A stretch of DNA of 64,000 bases from Desulfobacterales bacterium. GTDB lineage: Bacteria > Desulfobacterota > Desulfobulbia > Desulfobulbales > BM004. Where the stretch lies: assembly GCA_021647905.1 (NCBI GenBank), contig JAKITW010000002.1, positions 6,210 through 70,209 of the forward strand, in the 5' to 3' direction. The stretch's first letter is position 1. Each line of letters opens with the position of its first letter. Below are positions 17,075-32,315 of the stretch, one piece after another. The notes under the pieces are model-generated. The model was not told the origin of the DNA. It did not search any database and saw only the letters and a program-made list of their open reading frames with translations. The position numbers were made by a program, and so were the translations under genes.

Positions 17075-18328
17075 TCACTCCAGCGACAGGAGATGGGTGC
17101 GCAGGTTGCGTTTCTTGTGCTTGAGCCCGAGCTTCTTGCGGAGATTGTTTCTGTGGAACTCCACGGCATTTTGCGAAACATTCATCAACCGCGACATCTC
17201 TTTGTTGGTTTTTCCCAGCTTGATGAAGTCAGCGACCTGGACCTCCCGGGGACTTAAGCCCAGGGCGGCGGAGGAAACACGCTGGGGGAAGGCGTCGGTG
17301 ATCTTGTTTAAATTGTTCTTGACCACGTCCACATAGGACCTGCTCCGGGAAGGCGGCAGCCGCGCCTCAAGATGGTTGAGGTAGGGCAGGACCCGGCGCT
17401 TGATATTGTTGACGATTTTCTCCTCAACCTCCTCCTTGGCCCTGCTGACCTGCTGCAACAGGACCCGCAGGGCGGTATTCACCTCCTCCAGTTCCCTGGA
17501 ACGCCGGCCCAGTTCTTTTTCAATCTCTTTGCGCTCGGTGATATCGAACATCGCCCCGATCAGGCCGGCCACCTTGCCCTTGCCGTTGTAAAAGGCCGCC
17601 TTGCAGATCATCATCTCCCGGAGGTTGCCGTCGGCAACAACGGCCACGCTTTCATAGGTTTCCCGGCCGCCCTTTTTAATGATCCGTTTGTCGATCTTAT
17701 TATGGAGGACCGCCGTGTCCTTGGTGGCAAACTCGGAAACCATCTTGCCGATCAGTTTCTTGCGGGGCATGCCCATGGCCTCCTCAAAGGCGCTGTTGCA
17801 ACCAAGGAACCGGCGGCGGGTGTCCTTGAAAAACACCGGGGTGGGGATGGCGTCGATCAGGGTCTGCTGAAAGGCCAGTTGTTCGGCCAGGCTTTTGGTT
17901 CGCCTGGTCACCAGCTTTTCCAGGTTGTTCCGGTGTTCGCGCAGGGCCTGTTCGGTCCGCTTGATACCCAGGCAACTGCGGGCCAGGCCGCAGACTTCCA
18001 CCATGCTCAAGGGCTTGCGCAGGAAGAAATTTACCCCCTTCTTGAAACAGCGTTCCACCTCGCGGTCGTCGCCATGCCCGGTGATCACCACCACCAGAAA
18101 GGGATCGTCGGGCTTGATCGTGACCTGTTTGAGAAATTCAAAACCATTCATCACCGGCATCTTGAGGTCAAGAAAGATCAGGTCCGGCGGTTCCTTGTCG
18201 ATCATTGCCAGCCCCTCGGCGCCGTTCTCTGCAAAAAACAGGGAGTACGGTTCATGTTTCAGCGCCTTTTTCATGGTTTGTCGCAAAGCGAATTCGTCAT
18301 CAATGATCAATATCCTGGGTACGCTCAT
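17075..18328 (-). CDS. Response regulator: REC - PAS - LuxR-type HTH
   Basis: ILIIDDE..DLIFLDLKMPVMNG (REC), a central PAS-like region, and C-terminal LSPREVQVADFIKLGKTNKEMSRLMNVSQNAVEFHRNNLRKKLG (LuxR/FixJ HTH). Confidence 0.88.
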   Translation of the reverse strand: MSVPRILIIDDEFALRQTMKKALKHEPYSLFFAENGAEGLAMIDKEPPDLIFLDLKMPVMNGFEFLKQVTIKPDDPFLVVVITGHGDDREVERCFKKGVNFFLRKPLSMVEVCGLARSCLGIKRTEQALREHRNNLEKLVTRRTKSLAEQLAFQQTLIDAIPTPVFFKDTRRRFLGCNSAFEEAMGMPRKKLIGKMVSEFATKDTAVLHNKIDKRIIKKGGRETYESVAVVADGNLREMMICKAAFYNGKGKVAGLIGAMFDITERKEIEKELGRRSRELEEVNTALRVLLQQVSRAKEEVEEKIVNNIKRRVLPYLNHLEARLPPSRSRSYVDVVKNNLNKITDAFPQRVSSAALGLSPREVQVADFIKLGKTNKEMSRLMNVSQNAVEFHRNNLRKKLGLKHKKRNLRTHLLSLE

Positions 18329-18435: not shown

Positions 18436-20439
18436 CTAAGGGGGGATCTCCTTTTCCGTCCCCGCCGCCACCGGCAGCGTAAAAACGAACCGGCCGGCGC
18501 CGCCGGGAACGGGCTCATACCGGATTGAACCATGGTGCTCCCGGATGATGCCGTAAACAATGGCCAGCCCCAGACCAGTCCCTTTATCCACCTCCTTGGT
18601 GGTAAAAAAGGGCTCGAAAATTTTCCCCTGCAGCTCGGTGGAAATTCCAGGGCCGCTGTCGCTGAAGGTCGTTGTCACCCGGTGCGATCCGTCCCGGAAC
18701 ATCTCCACCATGACCTTGCCGCTCTGTTCCAGCTCCATCGCATCCATGGCATTCTGCAACAGGTTGATGAACACCTGCTCGAGCTTGTTGGCATTTCCCC
18801 GCACCAGCGGGAGATCAGAGGGTGTGTCCAGGCGAAGGTCGATATTATGGCGGCGCATCCTTTCACCCATCAGGATCATGGTCTTGTCAAGAACGGCGGG
18901 AAGGGCGACCGGTTCAAAAATATCAGTATCAGGACGGCCAAAGGTGCGCAACTGGCCGGTGAGGGCGGAGATCCGGCTCACCTGGCGCAGGGCCTCGCGG
19001 AAGTCGTCCCGCAACTCTTCCATGTCCACCCGGCCGAGATCGAAATCCCGCAGGGTGGACTCGTAGATCACCCTGATGAACGACAGCGGCTGGTTGATCT
19101 CATGGGCGATGCCGGTGCTGATCTGCCCCAGGGAGGCCAGCTTGGCCTGGGTCAGGGACTTGACCTCCAGCTCCTGCCGCTTTTTTTCGGCCTCAACCCG
19201 GCGGCTGATATCCCGGGCCAGGACGGCCATCTTGGTCGGCCGGTTATGGGCGTCGACAATCGGGTAGACCGCATAGTCGAAATAGCGTTCGCCATGTTCG
19301 CCCTCGAAGCGGAGGTTGCGGCCGGCAGCCACGGCCGCCTCGATCCGGCCGCGGAAGCGGAACAGGGTGTCGTCAACAGCGAGCAGGTCCCAGATGTTGT
19401 TTCCCGCCAGGGACTCCATATCCAGGCCAAGCCGCTCGGCCATGGCCTGGTTGGCGTCCAGGATCGTGCCGTGAACATCCAACAGGGCCGAGGCGTTGAT
19501 CGGAACGTTCAGCAGAACCCGCGCCGTCTCCTCGCTCTCCAGCAGGTCCTGTTCCGCCTGCTTGCGGATCGCAACCTCCTGCTCCAGTTCCGCGACCTTC
19601 TGCTCCAGCCCCCTGCGCAGTTCGTTGATGGTGGCAAAGGCGCCGCCGAGCTGGCTGACCAGGGAGTCGAAGGTCCCGGCCAGGGCCCCCAGCTGGTCGG
19701 CGGTGTCCACCTCAATACCATACCCCTTGATGTTGCCGACCAGTTGGTTCAGGGGCCGGGTAACCTCCCGGACAATGAAAGAGGTCACCACCGCGCCCAG
19801 GACCAGGGCCCCGGCAAACAGCAGAAGGCTCCTGGAAAGGGTGCCCCGGAGCCGCTGCTGCAGGGGCCGCTGGTCCACGCAGATCCCGATAAAGCCGATT
19901 ATCCGGCCGCCGCCGGAGACCGGGCCGCTTTGCTCAAAGAACAGGGACTCGTTGCTAAAGGTTCCGCTGGTCGCCCGCACCGGAGACCAGAACTCAATAA
20001 CTTCACTGACCGGATCCTCAAAGTAAAGGGTGGTTTGGCTTGCAGCCACCTTCCCGAGTATCTCCGGGTCCATTCCCTTTTCAACGGTGCAATGACTGCG
20101 CCCCGCGGGCCTCCGCGGGTTGAATTCCATGGTCAGCAGCTTGATGTCGGTGTTATAGACACAGACCTCCAGCACCCCGTCCACCCGGAATGCCGACTGG
20201 ACGGTGGTTTTGATCTGTTCCGGATCCTCGGCAAAAATTCCCAGCCGGGCCGACTGGGCCACCACCTCGACCAGCAACCTCCCCTCCCTGATCATCTCGG
20301 TTCTCAGTTCCCGCTGCCGGCTCCAGAAGTGGTAATAACTCATGGACCCGGCAACCAGGAGGATGGCGGCCATCAGGTAGACGAACACCCGGACGGTTAA
20401 GTTCTTGTTGATATGATCCAGCGGGCGGAAACGCTTCAT
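18436..20439 (-). CDS. Sensor histidine kinase (periplasmic domain, HAMP, PAS, HisKA, HATPase_c)
   Basis: Two TM segments, H-box GIAHEINQPL, N box FINLLQNAMDA, G boxes DSGPGI and GTGLGLAI. Confidence 0.9.
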   Translation of the reverse strand: MKRFRPLDHINKNLTVRVFVYLMAAILLVAGSMSYYHFWSRQRELRTEMIREGRLLVEVVAQSARLGIFAEDPEQIKTTVQSAFRVDGVLEVCVYNTDIKLLTMEFNPRRPAGRSHCTVEKGMDPEILGKVAASQTTLYFEDPVSEVIEFWSPVRATSGTFSNESLFFEQSGPVSGGGRIIGFIGICVDQRPLQQRLRGTLSRSLLLFAGALVLGAVVTSFIVREVTRPLNQLVGNIKGYGIEVDTADQLGALAGTFDSLVSQLGGAFATINELRRGLEQKVAELEQEVAIRKQAEQDLLESEETARVLLNVPINASALLDVHGTILDANQAMAERLGLDMESLAGNNIWDLLAVDDTLFRFRGRIEAAVAAGRNLRFEGEHGERYFDYAVYPIVDAHNRPTKMAVLARDISRRVEAEKKRQELEVKSLTQAKLASLGQISTGIAHEINQPLSFIRVIYESTLRDFDLGRVDMEELRDDFREALRQVSRISALTGQLRTFGRPDTDIFEPVALPAVLDKTMILMGERMRRHNIDLRLDTPSDLPLVRGNANKLEQVFINLLQNAMDAMELEQSGKVMVEMFRDGSHRVTTTFSDSGPGISTELQGKIFEPFFTTKEVDKGTGLGLAIVYGIIREHHGSIRYEPVPGGAGRFVFTLPVAAGTEKEIPP

Positions 20440-20442
20440 TGG

Positions 20443-21441
20443 CTATTCTCGCGGGTCGTTGTTGGTCGGGGCGCCCACTGTTAACCCCAGTTTGCCGGCC
20501 ACGATATGGTTGACCGATATCTTGACCGTGGCGGGTGCGGCCGCCGGCAGCCGGGACGAGCCCGGCCTGCCGATAATCTGCCGGGCCATTTCCCCGGCCC
20601 GCTCTCCCATGGTGTACGGATCAAAGGTCACTGCCACGGTGGCGCCCCTTTTCAGGTATTTCTCTGAAAAGGTGAGTACCGGAATCCGGTTTTCAAGGGA
20701 AAAGAGCAGGATGACCTCAACCGTCTCCGGGGTGGTCACGGTCTGGTCCGGCAGCATCCAGAAGGCATCGATCCGGCCGGCCAGTTTCTCCAGAAGCCGC
20801 CGCACCTGCCGGCGGTCTTCCGTCTGCTCTTCGATAACGAGTATTCCTCGTTTGTCCGCCGCCGCCATGATCCTCCGGGCCAGGACGCTGTTGCGCCGGG
20901 GATCATAGATAAGCCCGATTCGTCTGAGCCAGGGAATCACCCGGAGAAAGGCGGCCAGTTGCTGCTCCGGAGAAATAATCATCTCCACCCCGGTGGTATT
21001 GGCCCGGTCGGCGGCCAGCGCCCCGGGATAGGGCACCATCAGGTAGAGGATGGGGATATCGGCTATCGACTTGACCGCATTCAGGGCATTGGTGCCCACG
21101 GCCAGGACCAGGGCGGGCCGCTTGGCCAGAACCTTGGCGCGCAGGAATGCAGGGCCCGGTTCCTCGGCCAGAACCAGGTCGGTGATGGTGATCGCGGAGA
21201 TGCTCTTCAGACCCCGGGCCGGGACCGCCCGGGCGACCGCCGCCCGGAAACCATCCAGGGCCGCCTGATAGGGTGCGATCCGGGAACTGCTCACCGTAAC
21301 GACCTCAGCGGCCCTGGCCGGCCAGGCCCCAAAAAGCAATACCGCAAGTATGAAAAGGAAATATTTCACGCTGCAAACCGCCTTTCCGGCACGGCAGAGG
21401 GCTGGGTTCTCCGCCAGCACCCGCCGTTTTGTCAGCAACAT
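20443..21441 (-). CDS. Periplasmic ABC-type substrate-binding-like protein (COG2984-like), co-transcribed with the kinase
   Basis: Signal peptide ..FLFILAVLLFGAWPARA and a periplasmic-binding-fold-like sequence. 3-nt gap to the kinase gene. The real start may be GTG at 21369. Confidence 0.7.
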   Translation of the reverse strand: MLLTKRRVLAENPALCRAGKAVCSVKYFLFILAVLLFGAWPARAAEVVTVSSSRIAPYQAALDGFRAAVARAVPARGLKSISAITITDLVLAEEPGPAFLRAKVLAKRPALVLAVGTNALNAVKSIADIPILYLMVPYPGALAADRANTTGVEMIISPEQQLAAFLRVIPWLRRIGLIYDPRRNSVLARRIMAAADKRGILVIEEQTEDRRQVRRLLEKLAGRIDAFWMLPDQTVTTPETVEVILLFSLENRIPVLTFSEKYLKRGATVAVTFDPYTMGERAGEMARQIIGRPGSSRLPAAAPATVKISVNHIVAGKLGLTVGAPTNNDPRE

Positions 21442-21628
21442 TGAGAAGAAAGGATGAGAGGTTTCAAGATTCCCAGGAAGTGAAAAAATTGTTTCCCCGG
21501 CAACCTTGAGAATATAACCTATCCGGCCGATTCTCCAACCCTAAAAAAGAACTAGGGTTATACCAGGTAAAAACTATCACTCTGGCCAACACATTGTTGG
21601 CTCGGAATTAATGTTTTTCCGTCTCTCC

Positions 21629-21657
21629 TTGCCTCTGGAATTGGATTTTACTATAAT
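21629..21657 (+). promoter_or_regulatory. Sigma-70-type promoter candidate (TTGCCT-17 nt-TATAAT)
   Basis: TTGCCT at 21629-21634 and a perfect TATAAT at 21652-21657 with a 17-nt spacer. It faces the TonB-receptor gene. Confidence 0.5.
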
Positions 21658-21662
21658 AAATA

Positions 21663-21768
21663 TGATGAACTCGTAACAACCCGAAAGGCTTCAAATGCCA
21701 CCCAATAAAATCAACAAGTTACAAGACGAATCACGTCCGTCGAGCGGGTTGTTGCGAGACCGACAAAT
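21663..21768 (-). repeat. Family B repeat (copy B3, inverted orientation)
   Basis: 106 nt identical to 32316-32421. It is the reverse complement of the 14573 unit, apart from a short variable centre. Confidence 0.9.
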
Positions 21769-21771
21769 ATG

Positions 21772-21912
21772 TTTATATGAAAATCGTAACCATTCACCGG
21801 GGGTATGGAATTACGGTAACCTCATGCCCGTAAGCAGAGTCCTTGTAATGGCAGAGTGATATCTTTACTTTGTTTCGTTGTAACCGGCCAACATGGTCCA
21901 GCCATGCTGGGC
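21772..21912 (+). repeat. Family A repeat (copy A8, with an enlarged first hairpin)
   Basis: Starts TTTATATGAAAATCG and ends TTTCGTTGTaaCcGGCCAACATGGTCCAGCCATGCTGG. Confidence 0.55.
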
Positions 21913-21969
21913 TGGCTGAGAAAACAGGGTTGCCGAAACCATCCGGCGTCTCTTTGGGAGAGAGGAAAT

Positions 21970-23943
21970 ATGCCCGGAAAAATCCGCCACCGCTTGATGC
22001 TGCTTTCCTGGGCCGCCGCCTATCTGTTCTTCCCGGCACCATTGCCGGCCGCGGGCCCGGCCGCCGATGCGGTCCTGGCCGAGGACCAGTTTCTGGAACT
22101 TTACTTTGACAAGGACCAACTGGTGCAGGCCCCCACCCGCTCGCCCAAACCCCTGTCCCAGGTCGCCGAGAACGTCACCATCATTTACGCCGACGAGATC
22201 GAGGCAATGAACGCCCATAACCTGGCCGAGGTGCTGAACCGGGTCACCGGCCTCTATATCTCCAGCAATGGCCGCGATTTCGGCAGCAGTGCCAGCCTGA
22301 CAGCCCAGGGATCCGAGCCGCGGCACGTACTGGTGCTGTTAGACGGCATTGTCTGGAACTATATCGGCAGCGGCCGGGCCGGCACCAGCCAGATCCCGCT
22401 GGGGATCATCAAGCGGGTCGAGGTGATCAAGGGGCCGGCCTCCTCCACCTGGGGCGCGGCCCTGGGCGGGGTGATTAACATCATTACCAGGGATGCGGGA
22501 ACCAGTGCCAGGCCCGTCAGCACGCTTTCGCTTTCCTACGGCCAGGCCCGCTCCCTGGACGTTCAGGCCCGGGTGGCGGGCCGGGCCGGCACTGTCGGCT
22601 ACCTGCTCCACGCCGGCAGGCAGCGCTCCGACGGGCTCCTCAAGTCCCGGGAGTTTTTCAGCTCCAGTTTGTACGGCAAGTTCACTCTCGATCCCCAGCC
22701 AGACCACAACCTCACCCTTACCCTCGGCTACAGCGATCCGGAGTGGTATGCCGGCGATTTGCCCAGCGGCGGGATTCTTTCCCAGGGGCTTCATCAACGG
22801 CGTTTTGTCACCGCCACCCTGGACTCGCGGATCAGCCCGGTGCTGGCCCTCAACCTGTCCCTGCACGCGATCCAGCGGCGCTTTGATCAACTCAGTGACG
22901 AGTCCGGCCTCTATGCCGTCTTTGGCCCGGGCTACCAGCGGGGCGATCTGTTTGAGAACAATATCTTTGACGAGACCAACTATGGGGCCGGCGGCCGGCT
23001 GGTCTGGACCCCGGACAGCCACACCGTGGTGCTGGGCCTGGACCTGGAGCGCAACGAGAACGAGCAGCGCAACCAGGCCGGGGCCTATCGCCAGTGGCAG
23101 GGCGCGGCCCCTTTTTCCACCTACTCCTCTGAGATTAACCAGTGGGCGATCTATGGTAATGACACCCTTGCCCGCGGCAGATTGACCCTGACCCCGGGCA
23201 TTCGTCTTGACGGCAACTCCATCACCAAACCATTTATCAGCCCCAGCCTGGGGATAACCTACCGCCTGCGCCGGGATACCCTGCTCCGGGGCCAGGTGGC
23301 CCGGGCCTTTACCATCCCGCCCCTGTCCTGGCTCTCCGGCGGCGGGCTGTTCTTCGATCCCAACCCCGATCTTGAGCCGGAACAGGTCTGGTCCTTCCAG
23401 GCCGGAATCGAGTCCACGGCCGTCAAGTATCTCTGGCTCAAGGGCACGGTGTTCCGGCACGATCTGGACAATACCTTCGGCGAGACGACCTCGCCTCTCA
23501 ACCCGAAGCATTCCACTATGCAAAACATGGGCAAGGAGCACCGCACCGGTTTTGAGGCCGAGGCCAAGTCCGCGCCCTTTCACAACCTGACCCTGGGCGC
23601 GGGCTTTTCCCTGGCCAGCATCGACCGGGACTGGAACAGCGATGACCAGACCCTTTACAGCAGCAACCTGGAGCTGGCCTTTACCGAGCCGAAGACCGGA
23701 TTCAAAGCCTCCCTGTTCGGCCATTTCGTCTGGTGGGACCTGCCCGACTCAACCACCAGGGGCAGCTACGACGACTTTATCTGGGACCTGAACGCAAGTA
23801 AAAAAATACTTACCCGGGACCGCTCCATCACCACCCTGTTTGTCACGGTCCACAACCTGTTCAACGGCACCCAGTACCGGCACATTAACTTCAAGGATCC
23901 GGACCGCTGGGTGGAGGGCGGCATCCGGGTCTTTTGGGAGTAG
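21970..23943 (+). CDS. TonB-dependent outer-membrane receptor
   Basis: Signal peptide, then plug-domain motifs (VTIIYADEIE..NLAEVLNRVTGLYI..VLLDGI..IKRVEVIKGPASSTWGAALGGVINIITR) and a beta-barrel with alternating pattern. Start at ATG 21970 behind GAGAGGAAA. The track ORF begins 114 nt upstream, inside a repeat. Confidence 0.9.
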   Translation: MPGKIRHRLMLLSWAAAYLFFPAPLPAAGPAADAVLAEDQFLELYFDKDQLVQAPTRSPKPLSQVAENVTIIYADEIEAMNAHNLAEVLNRVTGLYISSNGRDFGSSASLTAQGSEPRHVLVLLDGIVWNYIGSGRAGTSQIPLGIIKRVEVIKGPASSTWGAALGGVINIITRDAGTSARPVSTLSLSYGQARSLDVQARVAGRAGTVGYLLHAGRQRSDGLLKSREFFSSSLYGKFTLDPQPDHNLTLTLGYSDPEWYAGDLPSGGILSQGLHQRRFVTATLDSRISPVLALNLSLHAIQRRFDQLSDESGLYAVFGPGYQRGDLFENNIFDETNYGAGGRLVWTPDSHTVVLGLDLERNENEQRNQAGAYRQWQGAAPFSTYSSEINQWAIYGNDTLARGRLTLTPGIRLDGNSITKPFISPSLGITYRLRRDTLLRGQVARAFTIPPLSWLSGGGLFFDPNPDLEPEQVWSFQAGIESTAVKYLWLKGTVFRHDLDNTFGETTSPLNPKHSTMQNMGKEHRTGFEAEAKSAPFHNLTLGAGFSLASIDRDWNSDDQTLYSSNLELAFTEPKTGFKASLFGHFVWWDLPDSTTRGSYDDFIWDLNASKKILTRDRSITTLFVTVHNLFNGTQYRHINFKDPDRWVEGGIRVFWE

Positions 23944-24076
23944 CGCCAGACCCACGGCCGGAACACAGTGGGATAAAGGTGTCCAGGGCCGGCCAAGCCT
24001 TAAGATAAAGGAGGTGATGCCTGTTTTTCTCAAAGGCCAGGGCAATAACCAGTAACAGCAACCCAAGGAGGGAAGT

Positions 24077-24178
24077 ATGAAGACATTAAAGATTATCGTT
24101 CTGGACCCGGGTATGGACTTGATGGAAATCGCGGCACAGGGGGACTGCTGTCTGGGGGCGGAAGTCGCAACACGGTGA
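24077..24178 (+). CDS. Small ORF (33 aa), candidate RiPP precursor peptide MKTLKIIVLDPGMDLMEIAAQGDCCLGAEVATR
   Basis: ATG preceded by AAGGAGG with 5-nt spacing, followed by a terminator hairpin. It lies directly upstream of a radical SAM/SPASM gene. Below the size cut-off of the supplied ORF track. Confidence 0.6.
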   Translation: MKTLKIIVLDPGMDLMEIAAQGDCCLGAEVATR

Positions 24179-24192
24179 AGGCCGTTTAAAAC

Positions 24193-24220
24193 AAAAGGGA
24201 CGCCCCGGCGTCCCTTTTGT
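24193..24220 (+). terminator. Rho-independent terminator/attenuator between the peptide ORF and the radical SAM gene
   Basis: GGGACGC-cccg-GCGTCCC stem-loop (24197-24214) followed by TTTTGT. Confidence 0.6.
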
Positions 24221-24302
24221 CGTAAACGGCAATTTTTTTTGCCCCGGGCTCCTGGGTAAACGCTTGCAGTCCAGCGGGTATAACCTTTTTCGGGAATCCC
24301 TT

Positions 24303-25634
24303 ATGCGCCTTTCTGTTTATCTCAAATCCTGGCCCTATCCGGCCGCGCCCGGCCACCACCTGCTCTACTCCACCCGCACCGCGGCCCTGGCCCTGGTGCC
24401 TGACCCGGTATTGACCAAGCTTGCGGCCGGCGGGCAGGTGGACCAGGAGTTTATCGACACCCTGACCCCCCTGGGCATGCTGGTCGCGGACCAGGATGCG
24501 GAGCGGGCCATGGTGCGGAACATGCTCGACGAGTTGAACCACATCAACCCCACCCTCACCGTGGCGGTGATCCTGGGAATGGAGTGCAACTTTGCCTGTC
24601 CTTACTGCTACGAGGGCAGCATGAAGGGCAGATATGCAATGGACGATGCCGTTGCCGACCAGCTGGTGGTTTTTTTAAAGGACCTCTTTGTCCGGAGAAA
24701 AAAGAAAAAAATGACCCTGGACTTCTACGGCGGCGAGCCCCTGCTCTACCTGGGCCGGATTATCTCGTTAGCCGGACAGCTCAAGCCCTTTGTTGAGGAA
24801 CAGGGGGGCGAATTCTCCTTTTACCTGGTGACCAACGGCTCGCTGCTCACCCGGAAAAGGGTGGCGAGGATGGGCCCGCTGGGCCTGGCCACGGCCAAGG
24901 TCACCGTGGACGGACCGGCCGCGATCCACAATGTCCAGCGGCCCTTCAGGTCCGGCCGGGAGAGCTTCAACCTGGTCCTGGACAATATCGCGGCCTGCTG
25001 CGACCAGGTCAGGATCGGCATCGGCGGCAATTTTACCCGGGACAATTTCCGGGAGTTTCCCCTGCTTCTGGATGAGCTGGCCGCCCGGGGCCTGACCGCG
25101 GACAAACTACGCCAGGTCAAGTTCGACCCGGTGATGCAGATCACCGACACCTTTGCCAATCCGGAGTTCCGGGCCGGCTGCAGCTCCTACAGCGACCCCT
25201 GGGTGGGCCAGGCCTTCTTTTATCTGCGGGACAAGATTATGGCCCAGGGGTATTCCACCCCGAAGATGAGCCCCGCTGCCTGCATGGTGGACCAGGAGGA
25301 CACCTTTACCGTGCATTACAACGGGGAGATCTACAAATGTCCGTCCATGATCGGCCATGACGGCTATCAGGCGGGCGATATCTTTCAAGGCCTCGGCGAC
25401 TATCGCGGCGCCTATCACCTCGACCACTGGCAACAGGAGGAAAAATGCCGCCAATGCGTCTACCTGCCCCTCTGTTTCGGCGGCTGCCGGTACCTGAAAC
25501 TGCAGCGGGACGGCGACATGGACGGAGTGGACTGCCGGCAGCCCTTTCTGGACTCGGCCCTGGAAGAGATGCTGCGCCAGGACATTCGCTACCGGAAACC
25601 GGAAGACAGAGGACAGAAGACAGAGGACAGATAA
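24303..25634 (+). CDS. Radical SAM / SPASM-domain peptide-maturase-like enzyme
   Basis: GMECNFACPYCYEG (CX3CX2C) lies about 100 aa from the N-terminus. C-terminal CRQCVYLPLCFGGCRY (CX2CX5CX3C), with additional Cys upstream (YKCPSM). Start is either ATG 24303 or TTG 24264. Confidence 0.9.
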   Translation: MRLSVYLKSWPYPAAPGHHLLYSTRTAALALVPDPVLTKLAAGGQVDQEFIDTLTPLGMLVADQDAERAMVRNMLDELNHINPTLTVAVILGMECNFACPYCYEGSMKGRYAMDDAVADQLVVFLKDLFVRRKKKKMTLDFYGGEPLLYLGRIISLAGQLKPFVEEQGGEFSFYLVTNGSLLTRKRVARMGPLGLATAKVTVDGPAAIHNVQRPFRSGRESFNLVLDNIAACCDQVRIGIGGNFTRDNFREFPLLLDELAARGLTADKLRQVKFDPVMQITDTFANPEFRAGCSSYSDPWVGQAFFYLRDKIMAQGYSTPKMSPAACMVDQEDTFTVHYNGEIYKCPSMIGHDGYQAGDIFQGLGDYRGAYHLDHWQQEEKCRQCVYLPLCFGGCRYLKLQRDGDMDGVDCRQPFLDSALEEMLRQDIRYRKPEDRGQKTEDR

Positions 25635-25661: not shown

Positions 25662-26312
25662 CTATTTCTTCTTGTCCCGGGCCGCGTTGTACAGACCGGG
25701 ATAGAGCCGGATGGCGCAGGCCGGGCAGATGGAGTGGCTGAATTCGATATTGGCGCGGGCCCGGATGTAGGACTCGATCTCGTGCCAGTGCCCGCCCTCG
25801 TCCCTGATCTTCTTGCAGGAAGCGCAGATGGGCAGGAAATCCTCCAGGGTCTGGATGGTTTCCTGGGCCTGCTGCAGGTCGCGGACCAGCTTTTCCCGCT
25901 CCTGTTCCAGCCGCTTGAAGCGGATACACCGCTCGGCCAGGCTTGAGATCTCCACCAGGTTGATGGGTTTGCGTAGAAAACTATGCACCCCCAGGTTGTA
26001 GCATTTCTGAATATCTTCATCCCCGCCATGACCGGTGATCACCACCACGGTATAGGGATCGGCCGGCTTGTAGTCTATGGACCGCAGAAAGCCGATGCCG
26101 TCCAGCACCGGCATCCGCAGGTCGAGGAAAATAAGTTCCGGGGATTCCCGGCGGAAGAACTCCAGTCCCATTTTGCCGTCATCGGCAAAGAGAAGCTCGT
26201 AGCCCGCATGTTTCAGCGCCTTCTTAATCGCTTGCTGGAGGATGGTTTCATCGTCCACCACCAGAACCCGGGGGGGGGCGGTTGGATGAACTTCCGGGGA
26301 AACGATCTGCAT
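25662..26312 (-). CDS. Response regulator receiver domain with a C-terminal CxxC...CPxC domain
   Basis: VLVVDDE..LIFLDLRMPVLDG..VVITGHG (REC), a coiled linker, then ICASCKKIRDEGGHWHEIESYIRARANIEFSHSICPACA. Start at ATG 26312 behind GGAGGAGAGC. Confidence 0.85.
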   Translation of the reverse strand: MQIVSPEVHPTAPPRVLVVDDETILQQAIKKALKHAGYELLFADDGKMGLEFFRRESPELIFLDLRMPVLDGIGFLRSIDYKPADPYTVVVITGHGGDEDIQKCYNLGVHSFLRKPINLVEISSLAERCIRFKRLEQEREKLVRDLQQAQETIQTLEDFLPICASCKKIRDEGGHWHEIESYIRARANIEFSHSICPACAIRLYPGLYNAARDKKK

Positions 26313-26376
26313 GCTCTCCTCCACTGCTGGGAATTATGGTTGCAAAACCCGCTTCAAAAAATGGCAAGGAATAAAA

Positions 26377-28508: not shown

Positions 28509-29609
28509 TCAGATATCCAGATAGGTCGTATCCCGGTTCAAAACCTCGCAGCCGGTCTCACTGACCACCACCATGTTCTCCAGCCGGATCCCGCCCCAGC
28601 CCGGCAGATAGATCCCCGGTTCCACGGTAACCACCATCCCGGGTTTTAATTTTTTCCTGCTCCAGCGGTTAAGGCCTGGAGATTCATGCACCGCCAGCCC
28701 CACCCCATGGCCCAGGCCGTGGCCGAACCGTCGGCCATGACCGGCCTTGCCAATCACGCTCCGGGCGGCCCGGTCCACCGACCTTGCCGTCACCCCGGGC
28801 CGAATTGCATTGATCCCGGCCAACTGGGCCCGGCGGACCAGGCGGAACAGCTCCACGGTCCGGCGGTCCGGCCGGCCCAGGACCACGGTCCTGGTCATAT
28901 CCGAGCAGTAACCGTCAAGCCGCACCCCCATGTCGATGACCACTGGTTCGCCCGCCCTGAGCCGGTGGTCGGTGGGCAGCGCATGGGGCAGGGCGGAGTT
29001 GGGACCGCTGGCGACAATGGTGGCAAAGCTGGGACCCTCGGCCCCCCTGACCCGCATCCCGGCCTCGATTGTCCACGCCACCTCCTTTTCGCTGATCCCG
29101 GGTTTGAGTTGGGCATAAACCTCCTGAAACACCTCTTCATTCATCCGCACCGCCCGTCTGATCTTAACCAGCTCCTCAGAACCCTTGCACACCCGCAGCC
29201 CCTCGACCAGACCGGTGACCGGCCTGACTTCAACCCCCGGCCCCTTCAGGGACTCGATGATCCGTTCCGCTGTGACATGGGTTACCCCGTCACCCTCAAA
29301 GGCCACTCTTTTCAGGCCCAGCCGGCCCACCAGCTTTTGCAGCAACGAAACCAGGCCGCGCGGATAGAGAACAACCTCAAAACCCTTGGCCTCGGCCTCG
29401 GCCTGGAGCTGATAGCGAAAATCGGTCAGCAGATAGGGGGCCCCGCTGCCCGGGATCAGCAAGGCGCCAGCGCTTTCGCTGAGCGATGGATCCAGGGCGG
29501 TGAAGCCGCTCAGATAATAACGGTTCTCCGGATTGGTGACCAGAAGGGCCTGAAGGCGACGGCAGCGCATTGCTCGCCGGACACGGGCAAGGGGGGACAT
29601 GATTAACAA
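28509..29609 (-). CDS. Xaa-Pro aminopeptidase (M24B family)
   Basis: N-terminal creatinase-like domain. Metal ligands in DMGVRLDGYCSDMTRT, GHGLGHGVGLAVHE, VEPGIY and IRLEN. Confidence 0.9.
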   Translation of the reverse strand: MLIMSPLARVRRAMRCRRLQALLVTNPENRYYLSGFTALDPSLSESAGALLIPGSGAPYLLTDFRYQLQAEAEAKGFEVVLYPRGLVSLLQKLVGRLGLKRVAFEGDGVTHVTAERIIESLKGPGVEVRPVTGLVEGLRVCKGSEELVKIRRAVRMNEEVFQEVYAQLKPGISEKEVAWTIEAGMRVRGAEGPSFATIVASGPNSALPHALPTDHRLRAGEPVVIDMGVRLDGYCSDMTRTVVLGRPDRRTVELFRLVRRAQLAGINAIRPGVTARSVDRAARSVIGKAGHGRRFGHGLGHGVGLAVHESPGLNRWSRKKLKPGMVVTVEPGIYLPGWGGIRLENMVVVSETGCEVLNRDTTYLDI

Positions 29610-30499: not shown

Positions 30500-32221
30500 T
30501 TATTCCTCAGGGCTCTTTTCTTTGCTGCATTTACAGTCGTCAAGGGACACGGCGCACTCCACCCGGTTGCGGCCGTGCTCCTTGGCCTTATAAAGGGCCT
30601 GGTCCGCCTCTTCCACCAGTTCCTTCCATGAAAGACCGGCCCGGAATGCAGAGACCCCGGCACTGATGGTCACCCCGCTTGCGGTCTCCACCTCTTCCCG
30701 GATCCGTTCGGCAACAACACAGCCGTTCCGGGCCGAGGCCTCCAACAGAATCACCAGAAACTCCTCACCCCCGTATCGGCAAACCAGATCGCTTTCCCGA
30801 ACCTGGTTCTTGAGGATGCGGGCCACCTTGGCCAGCAGCTCGTCGCCGGCGGCATGGCCATGGGTATCATTGTATTTCTTAAAAAAATCAATATCAAACA
30901 TTGCCACGGAAAGGGTCTTTTCATAACGCTCGGCACTGGAAACACTCTGCTCAAGGGTGATCTCCATCAGACGCCGGTTGGCAACACCGGTCAACGGGTC
31001 GTGCAGGGAAAGTCGCTTGATCTCTTCATAGTGACGTGCATTTTCTATGGCAATGCCGACCTGGTTGCCGATGCCCAGGAGCAACCCCTTCATGTGCTCC
31101 CCAATCTTGACATCGGCACCGGTGTAGAGATACAGCACCCCGACCACCCGCTCCGCCACCTTGAGCGGCACGATGATGTGGCCGTGCGGGGCCATGCCCT
31201 CGTAACGGATGGTGTGGTGTTTATCGTGATCGCTGTTGCCGGAGATGACAATCTCACCGGTCCGGGCCGCCAGGCCGCAGAGGCAGGTGTCAACGGTCAT
31301 GTTCTTGTGCTGTTCCAGAAAAACCGACGGGTGGCCCAAATGACAGACCAGTTCCATCCGCCGGCCGTCAACGATAAAGATCCCGCCCTTGTGCTCGACC
31401 TTGAAAATCTCGAGCCGGTTGACCACGGTCTTGAGAATATCGGATAGGAGTTCTTCCATGTCCCTGGTGTGGCTGATCACCCGGGAGACATCAAAAAGCA
31501 CGGACAGCTCACCGTTCTTCTCCCGCAGGTCCTCGTTCTGCTGAAAAATTTTCTCCTCTGCCTCTTTTCTGGCCAGGATGTTCCGCTTCGCCCTGGCAAT
31601 AATAAAGGCAATTACCAGCAGCAGCCCTGTTCCGAGAAAAACAAGCACCAGGTAATTGGTGGCCAAGAGGCGGTCCAGCTTTCCTTTCCGGGCTGTTATA
31701 TCAAGAAAAATCTCCATGGCGCCGACAATTTCACCATCTTTTCCGACCGGAACAAAGGTCTGCACCACGCTTCCATTAACAGACCCGGCCCCTGCGGCTA
31801 ACACCTCTGTCCGCACAACCCCGGCGCTGATCACCTGAAAAAATTTTTCACCGCCGATTATGGCGCCGACATCGTCACCATCCGTGGAGACCAATACCTC
31901 TGCGTCAGCGGACACCACGGTGATCTTCTTCAACTGAAACTGCTGCCGGGCCTCAAGCAGCTCCGCGACAAAACCAGGGGGAATATTTTCAGCGGTCAAC
32001 TTTTTCCCGCCAAGATCCCGGGTTAACATGGTGGAGAGATGGGTGGCCACCTCCACGGCCTCCTGCTCGGCGTCCTTGTAAACCATGTCGCTGAAGACCG
32101 GAGAAACAAAATAAAGCAGGTATCCGGCCAGGGCCGCCACCGCCGCTGCGGAGGAGATCAGAACAATCTGCAACAGCCTGTACTCACCGTACAGGTGACC
32201 GAGTGATCCTTTTTTCACCAT
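30500..32221 (-). CDS. Diguanylate cyclase: TM - periplasmic sensor - TM - GAF - GGDEF
   Basis: RESD I-site and RYGGEEF active site, with a GAF-like region upstream. Start at ATG 32221 behind AAAAGGAGG. Confidence 0.88.
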   Translation of the reverse strand: MVKKGSLGHLYGEYRLLQIVLISSAAAVAALAGYLLYFVSPVFSDMVYKDAEQEAVEVATHLSTMLTRDLGGKKLTAENIPPGFVAELLEARQQFQLKKITVVSADAEVLVSTDGDDVGAIIGGEKFFQVISAGVVRTEVLAAGAGSVNGSVVQTFVPVGKDGEIVGAMEIFLDITARKGKLDRLLATNYLVLVFLGTGLLLVIAFIIARAKRNILARKEAEEKIFQQNEDLREKNGELSVLFDVSRVISHTRDMEELLSDILKTVVNRLEIFKVEHKGGIFIVDGRRMELVCHLGHPSVFLEQHKNMTVDTCLCGLAARTGEIVISGNSDHDKHHTIRYEGMAPHGHIIVPLKVAERVVGVLYLYTGADVKIGEHMKGLLLGIGNQVGIAIENARHYEEIKRLSLHDPLTGVANRRLMEITLEQSVSSAERYEKTLSVAMFDIDFFKKYNDTHGHAAGDELLAKVARILKNQVRESDLVCRYGGEEFLVILLEASARNGCVVAERIREEVETASGVTISAGVSAFRAGLSWKELVEEADQALYKAKEHGRNRVECAVSLDDCKCSKEKSPEE

Positions 32222-32315
32222 CGAGAAAACCTCCTTTTTGCGGCACGGCCGGCCCGTGCCGGACAAAAAACACCTATACAGCACCATAGAACAGGGAAAA
32301 AGGTCAAGTCAAATG

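What the first reader, a model, noticed from the sequence alone, without database searches (positions are those of the whole stretch)
24077..25634. Unannotated 33-aa Cys-Cys peptide plus a radical SAM/SPASM enzyme: candidate novel RiPP locus
Seen in sequence:
- An ORF too short for the supplied track lies between the TonB-dependent receptor (stop 23943) and a 444-aa radical SAM gene. It runs from ATG 24077 to TGA 24178 and encodes MKTLKIIVLDPGMDLMEIAAQGDCCLGAEVATR. AAGGAGG sits 5 nt upstream.
- A GC hairpin follows it (GGGACGC/GCGTCCC, 24197-24214) plus TTTT, and then the enzyme gene.
- The enzyme carries CNFACPYC (CX3CX2C) about 100 residues in, and CRQCVYLPLCFGGC (CX2CX5CX3C) near the C-terminus.

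Established knowledge:
- Radical SAM/SPASM enzymes with an N-terminal peptide-recognition extension modify small precursors encoded next to them. Examples are the sactipeptide, ranthipeptide, PQQ, mycofactocin and streptide classes.
- A leaky terminator between precursor and enzyme genes is a recurrent RiPP layout.

Inference:
- The peptide has a leader of roughly residues 1-22 and a short core, DCCLGAEVATR.
- The vicinal Cys pair suggests thioether cross-links or a metal-binding product.
- No protease or exporter is in view, so the class cannot be assigned. It might be related to the geopeptide-type rSAM systems reported for Geobacter-like genomes. That link is from memory and unverified.
Basis: partly seen in the sequence, partly recalled or inferred. 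Interest (0 to 1): 0.8.

Follow-up and report, generated by a model that had tools for sequence, protein, structure and literature searches.

The report
Geopeptide Cys-Cys peptide with radical-SAM maturase
A real but unannotated 33-residue peptide gene with an invariant Cys-Cys pair sits next to its radical-SAM modifying enzyme; the pair belongs to the already named but experimentally untested "geopeptide" family, and it always travels with an outer-membrane receptor and a periplasmic sensor.

Summary

**What the pair is**
- The enzyme (24303-25634, 443 aa) scores 517 bits against NCBIfam TIGR04280, "geopeptide radical SAM maturase" (cutoff 400). NCBI already gives the identical protein that name.
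- The 33-aa ORF (24077-24178) is unannotated and misses NCBI's geopeptide model TIGR04229.
- A profile I built from 31 equivalent small ORFs at other loci scores it 37.9 bits (E = 5e-11). The next best of the window's 795 ORFs scores 7 bits.

**What is conserved across about 35 cassettes**
- The peptide has a hydrophobic leader strand, then x-x-Gly, then an invariant Cys-Cys 9-12 residues on, then a fast-diverging 7-15-residue tail.
- A GGAGG ribosome-binding site precedes it. A hairpin with a U-run separates it from the enzyme gene.
- The cassette is linked to a TonB-dependent receptor, a PF04392 periplasmic binding protein and a sensor kinase, in three different gene orders. None of about 59 out-of-family radical-SAM loci shows this linkage.

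**Mechanism**
- The enzyme model has a peptide-recognition domain and a full SPASM domain. Its closest solved structure is the thioether-forming CteB.
- Most likely, the enzyme cross-links the Cys-Cys pair, and the product is exported, taken back up by the receptor and sensed in the periplasm. None of this has been shown.

**Verdict:** a new member of a known, uncharacterised kind. Interest is moderate.

The parts
17075..18328 (-). Response regulator (receiver + PAS + LuxR/GerE helix-turn-helix), next to the kinase. It is the probable output of the sensor module in this subclade.
   Evidence: Pfam finds Response_reg, PAS and GerE. The nearest relative L096 has a 92% identical copy in the same position. 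Other loci carry different regulator types, for example sigma-54 activators in L014.
18436..20439 (-). Sensor histidine kinase: two transmembrane segments flanking a periplasmic domain of about 165 aa, then PAS, HisKA and HATPase.
Evidence: A homolog lies next to the binding-protein gene in L003, L006-L008, L010, L011, L014, L027, L030, L032 and L096-L099.
20443..21441 (-). Periplasmic substrate-binding protein of family PF04392 (ABC_sub_bind), with a signal peptide. No ABC permease gene is adjacent, so it is probably the ligand-binding partner of the kinase.
   Evidence: Pfam PF04392 scores 83.7 bits and the signal peptide is visible. The closest solved structures are 6HNI, 3LKV and 3LFT. It is linked to the cassette in three different gene orders.
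21629..21657 (+). Sigma-70-like promoter match (TTGCCT, 17 nt, TATAAT) in the 525-nt divergent intergenic region upstream of the receptor gene.
   Evidence: It matches 10 of 12 consensus positions. This is a consensus match only. The region holds no Rfam riboswitch and no Fur-box signal above shuffles.
21967..23943 (+). TonB-dependent outer-membrane receptor (plug + 22-stranded barrel) with no N-terminal signalling extension. It is the first gene of the cassette.
   Evidence: Pfam finds Plug and TonB_dep_Rec_b-barrel. No specific NCBIfam family reaches its cutoff. A homolog is present at every in-family locus with enough flanking DNA, although the second cassette of L097 has no receptor of its own.
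24065..24071 (+). Shine-Dalgarno sequence AAGGAGG, 5 nt before the peptide's ATG.
   Evidence: It is visible. A GGAGG-type site precedes the peptide ORF in nearly all of the 25 loci examined.
24077..24178 (+). Precursor peptide, 33 aa: MKTLKIIVLDPGMDLMEIAAQGDCCLGAEVATR. The leader strand is KIIVL, followed by DPG. The invariant pair is C24-C25, and the tail is 8 residues long.
   Evidence: Translation is. My own family profile scores it 37.9 bits, E = 4.7e-11. Equivalent Cys-Cys ORFs occur at every assessable related locus. Against L096, changes in the leader are synonymous only. The exact sequence is absent from a 15-billion-protein collection.
24181..24240 (+). Intrinsic-terminator-like hairpin with a run of eight T, lying between the precursor and maturase genes. 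It is probably a leaky attenuator that sets the precursor:enzyme ratio.
   Evidence: The fold has z = -4.1 and the scan finds a terminator-like site at 24217-24232 followed by the T run. A GC hairpin, usually followed by a U-run, sits at the same place in nearly all of the 25 loci, although the stem sequences differ.
24303..25634 (+). Geopeptide radical SAM/SPASM maturase, 443 aa. It has an N-terminal peptide-recognition domain (about residues 1-82), a radical SAM barrel with C95-X3-C99-X2-C102, and a SPASM domain (C293, C327-X13-G341-X4-C346, C382-X2-C385-X5-C391-X3-C395, C411).
   Evidence: NCBIfam TIGR04280 scores 517.4 bits against a cutoff of 400. The cysteines are invariant in 23 homologs. 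The AlphaFold model has mean pLDDT 91.6 and a strand-strand-strand-helix-helix-helix N-terminus. The best solved-structure matches are CteB 5WHY/5WGG. The identical protein is named "geopeptide radical SAM maturase" at NCBI.
25662..26324 (-). Response regulator (receiver + coiled coil + C-terminal four-Cys motif LPICASCKKIRD...FSHSICPACA), convergent with the maturase gene. It is linked only within this subclade.
   Evidence: Pfam finds Response_reg and the sequence is. A 62% identical homolog lies in the same downstream position in L016, and weaker homologs lie beside the kinase in L097 and L098. It is not conserved family-wide.

Best explanation
This is a geopeptide-class RiPP cassette embedded in a TonB-dependent receptor and periplasmic sensor module.

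**Shown**
- Position 24077-24178 encodes a conserved precursor peptide. It has a leader beta-strand (KIIVL-DPG), then an invariant Cys-Cys about 12 residues further on, then a variable tail.
- The downstream gene encodes a TIGR04280 radical SAM/SPASM enzyme with an N-terminal recognition domain and the cysteines for three Fe-S clusters.
- A terminator-like hairpin separates the two genes.
- A TonB-dependent receptor, a PF04392 binding protein and a sensor kinase co-occur with the pair across the family.

**Inferred**
1. The recognition domain binds the leader strand. The fixed leader-to-Cys-Cys spacing places the two cysteines in the active site.
2. The enzyme abstracts a hydrogen atom and joins cysteine sulfur to a carbon of a neighbouring residue, giving one or two thioether cross-links. 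This follows its closest characterised relatives CteB, PapB, the SCIFF maturase and QhpD.
3. The leaky terminator gives an excess of precursor mRNA over enzyme mRNA.
4. The mature peptide leaves the cell through an unlinked exporter. Some relatives encode an MFS_3 or ABC exporter within the cassette.
5. The cognate receptor, which diversifies along with the tail, takes the peptide back across the outer membrane. In the periplasm the peptide binds the PF04392 protein, which signals through the kinase to a response regulator.

The product would therefore be a strain-specific extracellular ligand, either a signal or a carrier of a scarce metal.

**My estimates**
- Precursor/maturase pair of the geopeptide family: about 0.9.
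- The Cys-Cys pair is the modification site: about 0.8.
- Thioether chemistry: about 0.45.
- Export followed by receptor uptake and periplasmic sensing: about 0.4.
For: **Enzyme identity**
- TIGR04280 scores 517 bits against a cutoff of 400, and NCBI gives the identical protein the same name.

**Precursor**
- A Cys-Cys small ORF lies upstream of the enzyme gene, or directly after the receptor gene, at every assessable in-family locus. That is about 35 cassettes.
- The profile that leaves out the window sequence gives E = 4.7e-11.
- Between close relatives, most changes in the central leader are synonymous and most tail changes are replacements. The cysteine codons change only synonymously.
- Ribosome-binding sites and terminator hairpins are conserved in position while their sequences differ.

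**Chemistry**
- The next-best NCBIfam families all act on Cys-rich peptides: CefB, TIGR04463, Clo7bot, PapB, the SCIFF maturase and QhpD.
- CteB is the best solved-structure match both by sequence profile (E = 2e-30) and by fold (E = 1e-21 over the full length).
- The SPASM cysteines are invariant.

**Receptor and sensor link**
- The receptor, binding protein and kinase accompany the pair in three gene orders. None of about 59 out-of-family radical SAM/SPASM loci has them.
- Tandem cassettes in one locus each carry their own receptor and a different peptide.
- The binding protein has a signal peptide, and the kinase has a periplasmic domain.

**Export**
- An MFS_3 (EntS-type) gene lies inside the cassette in L097 and L098.
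- The distant sister locus L035 encodes a receptor, an Opp-like binding protein, a Cys-Cys peptide, a radical SAM enzyme and an ABC exporter.
Against: - No product has been observed, and I found no publication on the family.
- No exporter or leader protease is conserved, and none lies in this window.
- No acceptor residue such as Asp or Glu is conserved after the Cys-Cys pair, so a PapB/QhpD-type Cys-to-acid link is not supported family-wide.
- Eight non-radical-SAM cysteines are invariant. Both auxiliary clusters could therefore be fully ligated, unlike CteB's open iron site as I recall it. This is not decisive.
- The peptide fails NCBI's own geopeptide model.
- The solved PF04392 relatives, as I recall, bind single amino acids, so the sensed ligand could be small rather than a whole peptide.
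- Gene linkage alone cannot show that the receptor's ligand is the peptide.
Confidence: 0.6

Rival explanations
1. The pair is the same, but the chemistry and purpose differ. The enzyme oxidises one or both cysteines. This could be an SbtM-type thio-oxazole formed with the preceding carbonyl, or an anSME-type thioaldehyde. The result is an invariant sulfur/nitrogen metal-binding unit. The peptide then acts as a metallophore for thiophilic metals that are scarce in sulfidic habitats, is re-imported by the cognate receptor, and has its variable tail read by that receptor, as with pyoverdine and its receptor types.
For: - A Cys-Cys pair is the only invariant core feature, while the tail is hypervariable and each cassette has its own receptor.
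- EntS-type MFS_3 exporters lie inside two cassettes.
- Methanobactin operons combine a RiPP precursor with a TonB-dependent transporter, periplasmic binding proteins and regulators (PMC3621798).
- SbtM, a radical SAM/SPASM enzyme from Geobacter, makes a thio(seleno)oxazole from Cys or Sec (PMC9204691).
- anSME is among the top structural matches.
Against: - The SbtM family is not among the top 25 NCBIfam matches, and the anSME model scores only 63 bits. The closest characterised relatives form thioethers.
- There is no Fur-box signal and no riboswitch in the regulatory region.
- No inner-membrane importer is linked to the cassette.
- No metal-related gene is conserved nearby.
Confidence: 0.22
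2. The modified peptide acts inside the cell, for example as a precursor of a small cofactor (as with PQQ or mycofactocin) or as a regulatory peptide. The receptor, binding protein and kinase handle some other imported compound and merely co-regulate or functionally depend on the peptide.
For: - The peptide has no signal peptide, and no exporter or protease is conserved.
- The solved PF04392 relatives are small-ligand binders (plus my own recollection of their ligands).
- The second cassette in L097 has no receptor of its own.
Against: - In split arrangements the peptide gene stays directly after the receptor gene (L098).
- Each tandem cassette pairs a distinct peptide with its own receptor.
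- Exporters appear in L035, L097 and L098.
- A hypervariable tail is unexpected for a cofactor precursor, where the reacting residues and their surroundings are usually fixed.
Confidence: 0.15
3. The small ORF is a chance reading frame, and the enzyme is a non-RiPP SPASM enzyme such as an anaerobic sulfatase maturase.
For: - The peptide matches no Pfam or NCBIfam model.
- anSME appears among the structural neighbours.
Against: - The anSME model scores 63 bits against a cutoff of 349.
- The enzyme has an N-terminal recognition domain.
- The ORF is conserved at about 35 cassettes, with invariant Cys-Cys, a ribosome-binding site and purifying selection on the leader.
- No sulfatase gene is adjacent.
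Confidence: 0.02

Closest known systems
Geopeptide system (NCBIfam TIGR04280 maturase + TIGR04229 peptide), defined bioinformatically
   Same: - The enzyme passes the curated cutoff.
- A small peptide gene lies directly upstream.
- The peptide has the same build as the TIGR04229 profile: a hydrophobic strand, then Gly, then Cys-Cys. Peptides from related loci hit that model at 20-23.5 bits.
   Different: - The window's peptide does not hit TIGR04229 at all, which probably explains why it is unannotated.
- The host is a Desulfobacterales MAG, not Geobacter.
- No experimental work on the family was found.
CteB/CteA, the SCIFF thioether-forming radical SAM/SPASM maturase (PDB 5WGG, 5WHY)
   Same: - It is the best solved-structure match by sequence profile and by fold, over the full length including the N-terminal recognition domain.
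- Its substrate also supplies cysteine as the sulfur donor.
   Different: - Sequence identity is only 17-18%.
- The SCIFF maturase model scores 80 bits against a cutoff of 425.
- The substrate here has two adjacent cysteines rather than six spread over 45 residues.
- SCIFF loci have no receptor or sensor link.
PapB and QhpD (ranthipeptide-type Cys-to-Asp/Glu thioether maturases)
   Same: They are SPASM enzymes that act on cysteine-containing short cores, and they are among the nearest characterised families (PapB 113 bits, QhpD 68 bits).
   Different: - Both scores are far below the cutoffs of 340 and 453.
- No Asp or Glu acceptor is conserved after the Cys-Cys pair.
Methanobactin operons (MbnA precursor, MbnB/C, MbnT receptor, MbnE binding protein, MbnM exporter)
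   Same: A RiPP precursor with modified cysteines is genetically coupled to a TonB-dependent transporter, periplasmic binding proteins and regulators (PMC3621798). This is the closest analogy for how the system may work.
   Different: - The maturase type is entirely different (radical SAM/SPASM rather than MbnB/C).
- Sensing here uses a binding protein plus a histidine kinase rather than a receptor N-terminal extension with a sigma/anti-sigma pair.
- The hosts are anaerobes.
- No metal link has been shown.
SbtM (selenobiotic maturase, Geobacter lovleyi)
   Same: It is a radical SAM/SPASM enzyme from the same bacterial groups, and it modifies a Cys or Sec residue in a short conserved motif (PMC9204691).
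   Different: - It is not among the top 25 family matches.
- Its substrate motif is GGUG with selenocysteine, whereas here the motif is Cys-Cys with no recoded TGA codon.
LuxP-LuxQ type sensing (a periplasmic binding protein presents the ligand to a membrane kinase); analogy drawn from my own knowledge
   Same: A secreted binding protein is encoded next to a kinase with a periplasmic domain, and no ABC permease is present.
   Different: - The binding-protein family differs (PF04392).
- A TonB-dependent receptor lies upstream of the sensing step.
- The ligand is unknown.

Membership tests
Geopeptide radical SAM maturase (NCBIfam TIGR04280) | Whole-protein HMM score at or above the curated cutoff of 400 bits | tested here: met
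   The score is 517.4 bits, E = 3e-155, covering profile positions 1-428 of 428.
Geopeptide radical SAM maturase (NCBIfam TIGR04280) | Radical SAM CX3CX2C motif plus a SPASM cysteine set (CX9-15GX4C ... CX2CX5CX3C ... C) | tested here: met
   C95/C99/C102, C327-X13-G341-X4-C346, C382/C385/C391/C395, C411 and C293 are all invariant in 23 homologs.
Geopeptide radical SAM maturase (NCBIfam TIGR04280) | A small Cys-Cys precursor gene is adjacent | tested here: met
   This holds for the window and for about 35 cassettes at related loci.
Geopeptide precursor (NCBIfam TIGR04229) | HMM score at or above the curated cutoff of 30 bits | tested here: not met
   The window peptide has no hit even at E up to 10. 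Peptides from related loci L018, L020, L022 and L032 reach only 19.9-23.5 bits.
Geopeptide precursor (NCBIfam TIGR04229) | Architecture: a hydrophobic leader strand, then Gly, then Cys-Cys 9-12 residues later, encoded beside a TIGR04280 gene | tested here: met
   My own profile from 31 peptides at other loci scores the window ORF 37.9 bits, E = 4.7e-11. Subthreshold TIGR04229 hits within that same peptide set bridge the two families.
Sactipeptide/ranthipeptide (thioether RiPPs) | Radical SAM/SPASM maturase with a peptide-recognition domain, and cysteine donors in the core | tested here: met
   The AlphaFold model shows three strands and three or four helices at residues 7-81. The fold matches CteB over its full length. 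The core contains C24 and C25.
Sactipeptide/ranthipeptide (thioether RiPPs) | Sulfur-to-carbon thioether cross-link in the product | not testable with these tools
   This needs mass spectrometry or NMR of the modified peptide.
Sactipeptide/ranthipeptide (thioether RiPPs) | Membership of a characterised maturase family (PapB NF047865, SCIFF TIGR03974, QhpD TIGR03906) | tested here: not met
   The scores are 112.7, 80.3 and 68.5 bits against cutoffs of 340, 425 and 453.
Anaerobic sulfatase maturase (TIGR03942) | HMM score at or above the cutoff of 349 bits, and a sulfatase substrate gene nearby | tested here: not met
   The score is 63.4 bits. No sulfatase gene is among the neighbours. The enzyme carries an N-terminal recognition domain, which I recall anSME lacks.
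Methanobactin-type chalkophore operon | MbnB/MbnC maturases and an MbnA-type precursor | tested here: not met
   The only maturase is a radical SAM/SPASM enzyme. The system shares only the coupling to a receptor and a binding protein.

The most novel reading that the evidence does not exclude
Geopeptides are secreted, strain-specific RiPP ligands of anaerobic Desulfobacterota. A radical-SAM-modified Cys-Cys unit is the constant part and the variable tail is the address. A cognate TonB-dependent receptor takes the peptide back up, and a PF04392 binding protein coupled to a histidine kinase senses it in the periplasm. This would be a new kind of Gram-negative peptide signalling, or a thiophilic-metal carrier system, with dedicated TonB-dependent import.
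Probability: 0.3. Interest if true: 0.8.

Novelty: new member of a known kind. Interest (0 to 1): 0.45.

Why it matters
**Why the family is worth studying**
- The geopeptide family has a name in annotation databases, but I found no published chemistry or biology for it.
- This locus and its relatives give a clean, minimal system: one 33-aa peptide and one enzyme. It could show what a radical SAM/SPASM enzyme does to two adjacent cysteines.

**What the conserved linkage offers**
- The link to an outer-membrane receptor and a periplasmic sensor turns an unknown function into a testable proposal. The product would be an extracellular ligand that the producer re-imports and senses.
- If that proposal holds, it would show how sulfate reducers and metal reducers either signal to each other or acquire metals in sulfidic sediments.

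**Practical points**
- NCBI's precursor model misses this branch of the family, so many such precursor genes probably remain unannotated.
- A cultured carrier exists for experiments: Desulfogranum mediterraneum DSM 13871 (locus L003).

Tried and rejected
- **Peptide homolog search.** I used locus-based ORF extraction and a local profile HMM instead.
- **Source contig.** Looking up the source contig through the identical protein P0001 returned nothing. I took context from the window and from relatives.
- **Literature.**
  - Searches for "geopeptide", TIGR04280 and TIGR04229 returned only "gageopeptide" papers or nothing.
  - Searches on PF04392 or ABC_sub_bind with TonB, and on SPASM with TonB-dependent and maturase, found nothing relevant.
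  - The paper I requested under PMC3133131, which I recalled as Haft and Basu 2011, is not held.
- **Riboswitch.** An Rfam scan of 21300-24400 found nothing meaningful.
- **Iron regulation.** The best matches to the E. coli-type Fur box in 15 divergent intergenic regions were no better than shuffled sequence, and no shared 8-mer stood out beyond A/T runs.
- **Receptor features.**
  - No cysteine is conserved across the receptors.
  - No specific NCBIfam receptor family reaches its cutoff. The matches were mostly confined to the plug, with BtuB best, and the selenocysteine-motif receptor families matched only weakly.
  - Solved-structure searches for the receptor and the binding protein gave generic matches.
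- **Exporter in the window.** There is no homolog of the MFS_3 genes seen in L097 and L098.
- **Extra domain in some family members.** It has no Pfam or PDB match and no homolog in the window or in any fetched locus, so it is not relevant to this locus.
- **Upstream mini-ORF (24017-24055).** I considered it as an alternative start or a regulatory upstream ORF and rejected it. Its ATG lies only 2 nt after the GGAGG, and its reading frame is not conserved in L096.
Full report
**1. The observation**

- The ORF from ATG 24077 to TGA 24178 encodes MKTLKIIVLDPGMDLMEIAAQGDCCLGAEVATR.
- AAGGAGG lies at 24065-24071, 5 nt upstream of the ATG.
- The stem GGGACGC/GCGTCCC is at 24197-24214.
- The next gene, 24303-25634, encodes a 443-aa protein with CNFACPYC at C95-C102 and CRQCVYLPLCFGGC at C382-C395.

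An 11-bp inner stem is nested in an 8-bp outer stem (24181-24230), followed by a run of eight T at 24233-24240. The region folds at -56.2 kcal/mol, z = -4.1 against shuffles. This is an intrinsic-terminator-like element.

**2. The enzyme**

It matches NCBIfam TIGR04280, "geopeptide radical SAM maturase", at 517.4 bits against a curated cutoff of 400, over the whole profile.
- The next families all score far below their cutoffs: CefB 161 bits, TIGR04463 153, Clo7bot 127, PapB 113, the SCIFF maturase 80, QhpD 68 and the anaerobic sulfatase maturase 63.
- The identical protein is in NCBI from a Desulfobacterales MAG and already carries the geopeptide-maturase name.
- In an alignment of 23 homologs at 47-86% identity, the radical SAM triad and eight further cysteines are invariant. 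These include the SPASM signature C327-X13-G341-X4-C346 and C382-X2-C385-X5-C391-X3-C395, plus C411 and C293.
- An AlphaFold model built on that alignment has mean pLDDT 91.6. It shows three strands and three or four helices at residues 7-81, the fold of a RiPP recognition element, ahead of the barrel and the SPASM domain.
- The best solved-structure match is the thioether-forming CteB, by sequence profile (5WGG, E = 2e-30) and by fold (5WHY/5WGG, E about 1e-21 over the full length). anSME, TigE, ChlB and SuiB follow.
- In a library clustered at 50% identity, about 30 full-length clusters score above 400 bits with the family profile, and 4,541 proteins reach E of 1e-30 or better. The core family is modest in size and sits within a large superfamily.

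**3. The peptide**

It hits nothing in Pfam or NCBIfam, and its exact sequence is absent from a 15-billion-protein collection. It is nevertheless a real, conserved gene.

*Conservation across loci*
- At 12 species-representative genome loci, 19 in-family metagenome loci and 6 further contigs, every cassette with enough upstream DNA carries an equivalent small ORF. The one exception is a frameshifted copy in L012.
- Aligned, the ORFs share a hydrophobic strand, then x-x-Gly, then 9-12 residues often containing (E/Q)(I/V)A(A), then an invariant Cys-Cys. A 7-15-residue tail follows, ranging from GxPSATK-like to strongly hydrophobic.
- A profile built from 31 of these ORFs, excluding the window and its closest relative, scores the window ORF 37.9 bits (E = 4.7e-11). 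The next best of the window's 795 ORFs of at least 20 aa scores 7.2 bits.

*Selection*
- Against the nearest relative (L096, enzyme 86% identical), codons 1-20 differ at three codons (4, 7 and 10), all synonymously. The replacements fall at residues 21-23 and in the tail.
- A second set of close relatives also has most replacements in the tail and just before Cys-Cys, with a few at the N-terminus and in the x-x-Gly region. The cysteine codons change only synonymously.
- A conserved leader with a fast-diverging core is the usual RiPP pattern.

*Flanking signals*
- A GGAGG-type ribosome-binding site precedes the ORF, and a GC hairpin, usually with a U-run, follows it in nearly all of the 25 loci examined. 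The stem sequences differ.

*Relation to NCBI's model*
- NCBI's 22-position geopeptide model TIGR04229 (cutoff 30 bits) hits four of the related peptides at 19.9-23.5 bits, spanning the strand through Cys-Cys.
- The window's peptide therefore belongs to the same family but to a branch the curated model misses. That probably explains why it is unannotated.

**4. The surroundings**

Upstream on the same strand is a TonB-dependent receptor, with a probable start at 21967 and a signal peptide. Three genes are divergently transcribed from it:
- a PF04392 periplasmic binding protein with a signal peptide (20443-21441);
- a histidine kinase with two membrane segments around a periplasmic domain of about 165 aa, followed by PAS, HisKA and HATPase (18436-20439);
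- a receiver-PAS-LuxR regulator (17075-18328).

Homologs of the receptor, binding protein and kinase accompany the peptide/enzyme pair at all in-family loci with enough flanking DNA. Three different gene orders occur:
- Order A: kinase and binding protein, divergent from receptor-peptide-enzyme.
- Order B: receptor-peptide-enzyme-binding protein, all on one strand.
- Order C: kinase, binding protein and receptor, all divergent from peptide-enzyme.

Linkage that survives rearrangement argues for functional coupling. None of about 59 out-of-family radical SAM/SPASM loci from the same scan has a receptor or binding-protein homolog.

Further context:
- L001, L002, L004 and L012 carry two tandem cassettes, each with its own receptor. 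Where both are intact (L001, L002, L004), each has its own, different peptide.
- In L098 an MFS gene has been inserted, and the peptide gene stays directly after the receptor gene.
- Exporters are not conserved and none is in the window. However, an EntS-type MFS_3 gene lies inside the cassette in L097 and L098.
- A distant sister locus, L035, encodes a receptor, an Opp-like family-5 binding protein, a 31-aa Cys-Cys peptide, a radical SAM enzyme and an ABC exporter in a row. Its enzyme scores 286 bits against TIGR04280, below the cutoff.
- The window's wider context is core chromosome: topA, gyrA, gyrB, gpsA and iPGM.

**5. How it most likely works**

*Shown*
- The precursor and maturase form a conserved pair.
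- The leader and the Cys-Cys pair are conserved.
- A terminator-like element lies between the two genes.
- The enzyme has a recognition domain and a full SPASM domain.
- The pair is linked to the receptor, the binding protein and the kinase.

*Inferred*
- The recognition domain binds the leader strand and places the Cys-Cys pair in the active site.
- The enzyme forms one or two thioether links from cysteine sulfur. This is the chemistry of its nearest characterised relatives.
- The terminator gives an excess of precursor transcript.
- The product is exported, re-imported by the cognate receptor, bound by the PF04392 protein and reported through the kinase.

The functional analogies are methanobactin operons (PMC3621798), pyoverdine with its receptor types, and LuxP-LuxQ-style sensing. 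The last two come from my own knowledge.

The main rival keeps the same logic but proposes cysteine oxidation to a heterocycle, as shown for SbtM from Geobacter (PMC9204691). That would give a metal-binding unit. I found no iron-box or riboswitch evidence for metal control, and SbtM is not among the closest families.

A second rival places the peptide's function inside the cell. An artefact or sulfatase-maturase reading is excluded.

**6. Comparison and novelty**

- The enzyme is a member of TIGR04280. The peptide has the geopeptide architecture but fails the curated TIGR04229 cutoff.
- The enzyme is not a member of the PapB, SCIFF, QhpD, anSME or methanobactin families.
- I found no paper on geopeptides in the searchable library.
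- The finding is a new, divergent member of a family that is known but experimentally uncharacterised.
One is the family-wide coupling to a TonB-dependent receptor and a binding-protein/kinase sensor. The other is the pairing of a distinct peptide with its own receptor in tandem cassettes. I could not establish whether that coupling has been described before.

**7. Verdict**

- Interest is 0.45. A specialist would not be surprised that the cassette exists. The system is compact and untested, and it now comes with a concrete, falsifiable model.

Noticed in passing
L035:249-5824: A distant sister system is encoded in one row: the C-terminus of a TonB-dependent receptor, an Opp-like family-5 binding protein, a 31-aa Cys-Cys peptide (MEVIRKGSDKVSEVTPRGCCFPAGTLTLRRA, 2546-2641), a radical SAM enzyme (286 bits against TIGR04280, below the cutoff) and an MsbA/HlyB-like ABC exporter.
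   Followed up: partly
Proteins P0129, P0133 and P0180 (from the 50%-identity representative library; no locus available): Three high-scoring family members (302-592 bits) carry an extra C-terminal helical domain of about 290 aa with a conserved RY(V/F/I)D(D/N)FID(T/E)ALWP motif resembling DDxxD. The two I tested (P0129, P0133) have no Pfam match, and P0129 has no significant PDB sequence match. No homolog exists in the window or the fetched loci. P0180 has also lost the CX3CX2C motif.
   Followed up: partly
L001:221-7290; L002:46-7290; L004:6-7281; L097:7819-14351: Several genomes carry two cassettes side by side with clearly different peptides. In L001 the basic-leader peptide ends CCLGKPSATK, and the acidic-leader peptide ends CCTNAQAPLRITS. 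Usually each cassette has its own receptor, but the second cassette in L097 has none.
   Followed up: partly
L097:11361-12629 (-); L098:8475-9755 (-): An MFS_3 transporter (PF05977, which I recall as the EntS siderophore-exporter family) is inserted within or beside the cassette at two loci. In L098 it separates the peptide gene from the maturase gene. The window has no homolog.
   Followed up: yes
window:25662-26324 (-): A response regulator here has a receiver domain, a coiled coil and a C-terminal four-cysteine motif (LPICASCKKIRDEGGHWHEIESYIRARANIEFSHSICPACA) that matches no Pfam domain. A 62% identical copy lies in the same position after the maturase gene in L016.
   Followed up: partly
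window:24007-24055 (+): A second strong GGAGG site is followed after only 2 nt by an ATG that opens a 12-codon mini-ORF (MPVFLKGQGNNQ). The DNA block is conserved in L096. There a 1-nt indel puts this ATG in frame with the peptide ORF, which would give a 54-aa extended form. Its function, if any, is unknown.
   Followed up: partly
window:14830-16956 (-): A 7TMR-DISM sensor fused to an adenylate/guanylate cyclase domain lies next to the regulator genes. It is also adjacent to them in the nearest relative L096.
   Followed up: no
window:27047-28363 (-): This is a PIN-PhoH fusion protein, followed by an M24 peptidase (28509-29609) and a GAF-GGDEF cyclase (30500-32287). None is conserved near the cassette at other loci.
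   Followed up: no
window:34405-39403 (-); L014:17622-21362: gyrA and gyrB lie about 9-14 kb downstream of the cassette in the window and about 6-10 kb downstream in L014. This suggests a conserved core-chromosome location rather than a mobile island.
   Followed up: no
window:3754-5283 (+); window:29599-30426 (+); window:42656-44344 (+): These long ORFs (509, 275 and 562 aa) have no Pfam match. The first overlaps an equally long ORF on the opposite strand, so it may not be a real gene.
   Followed up: no
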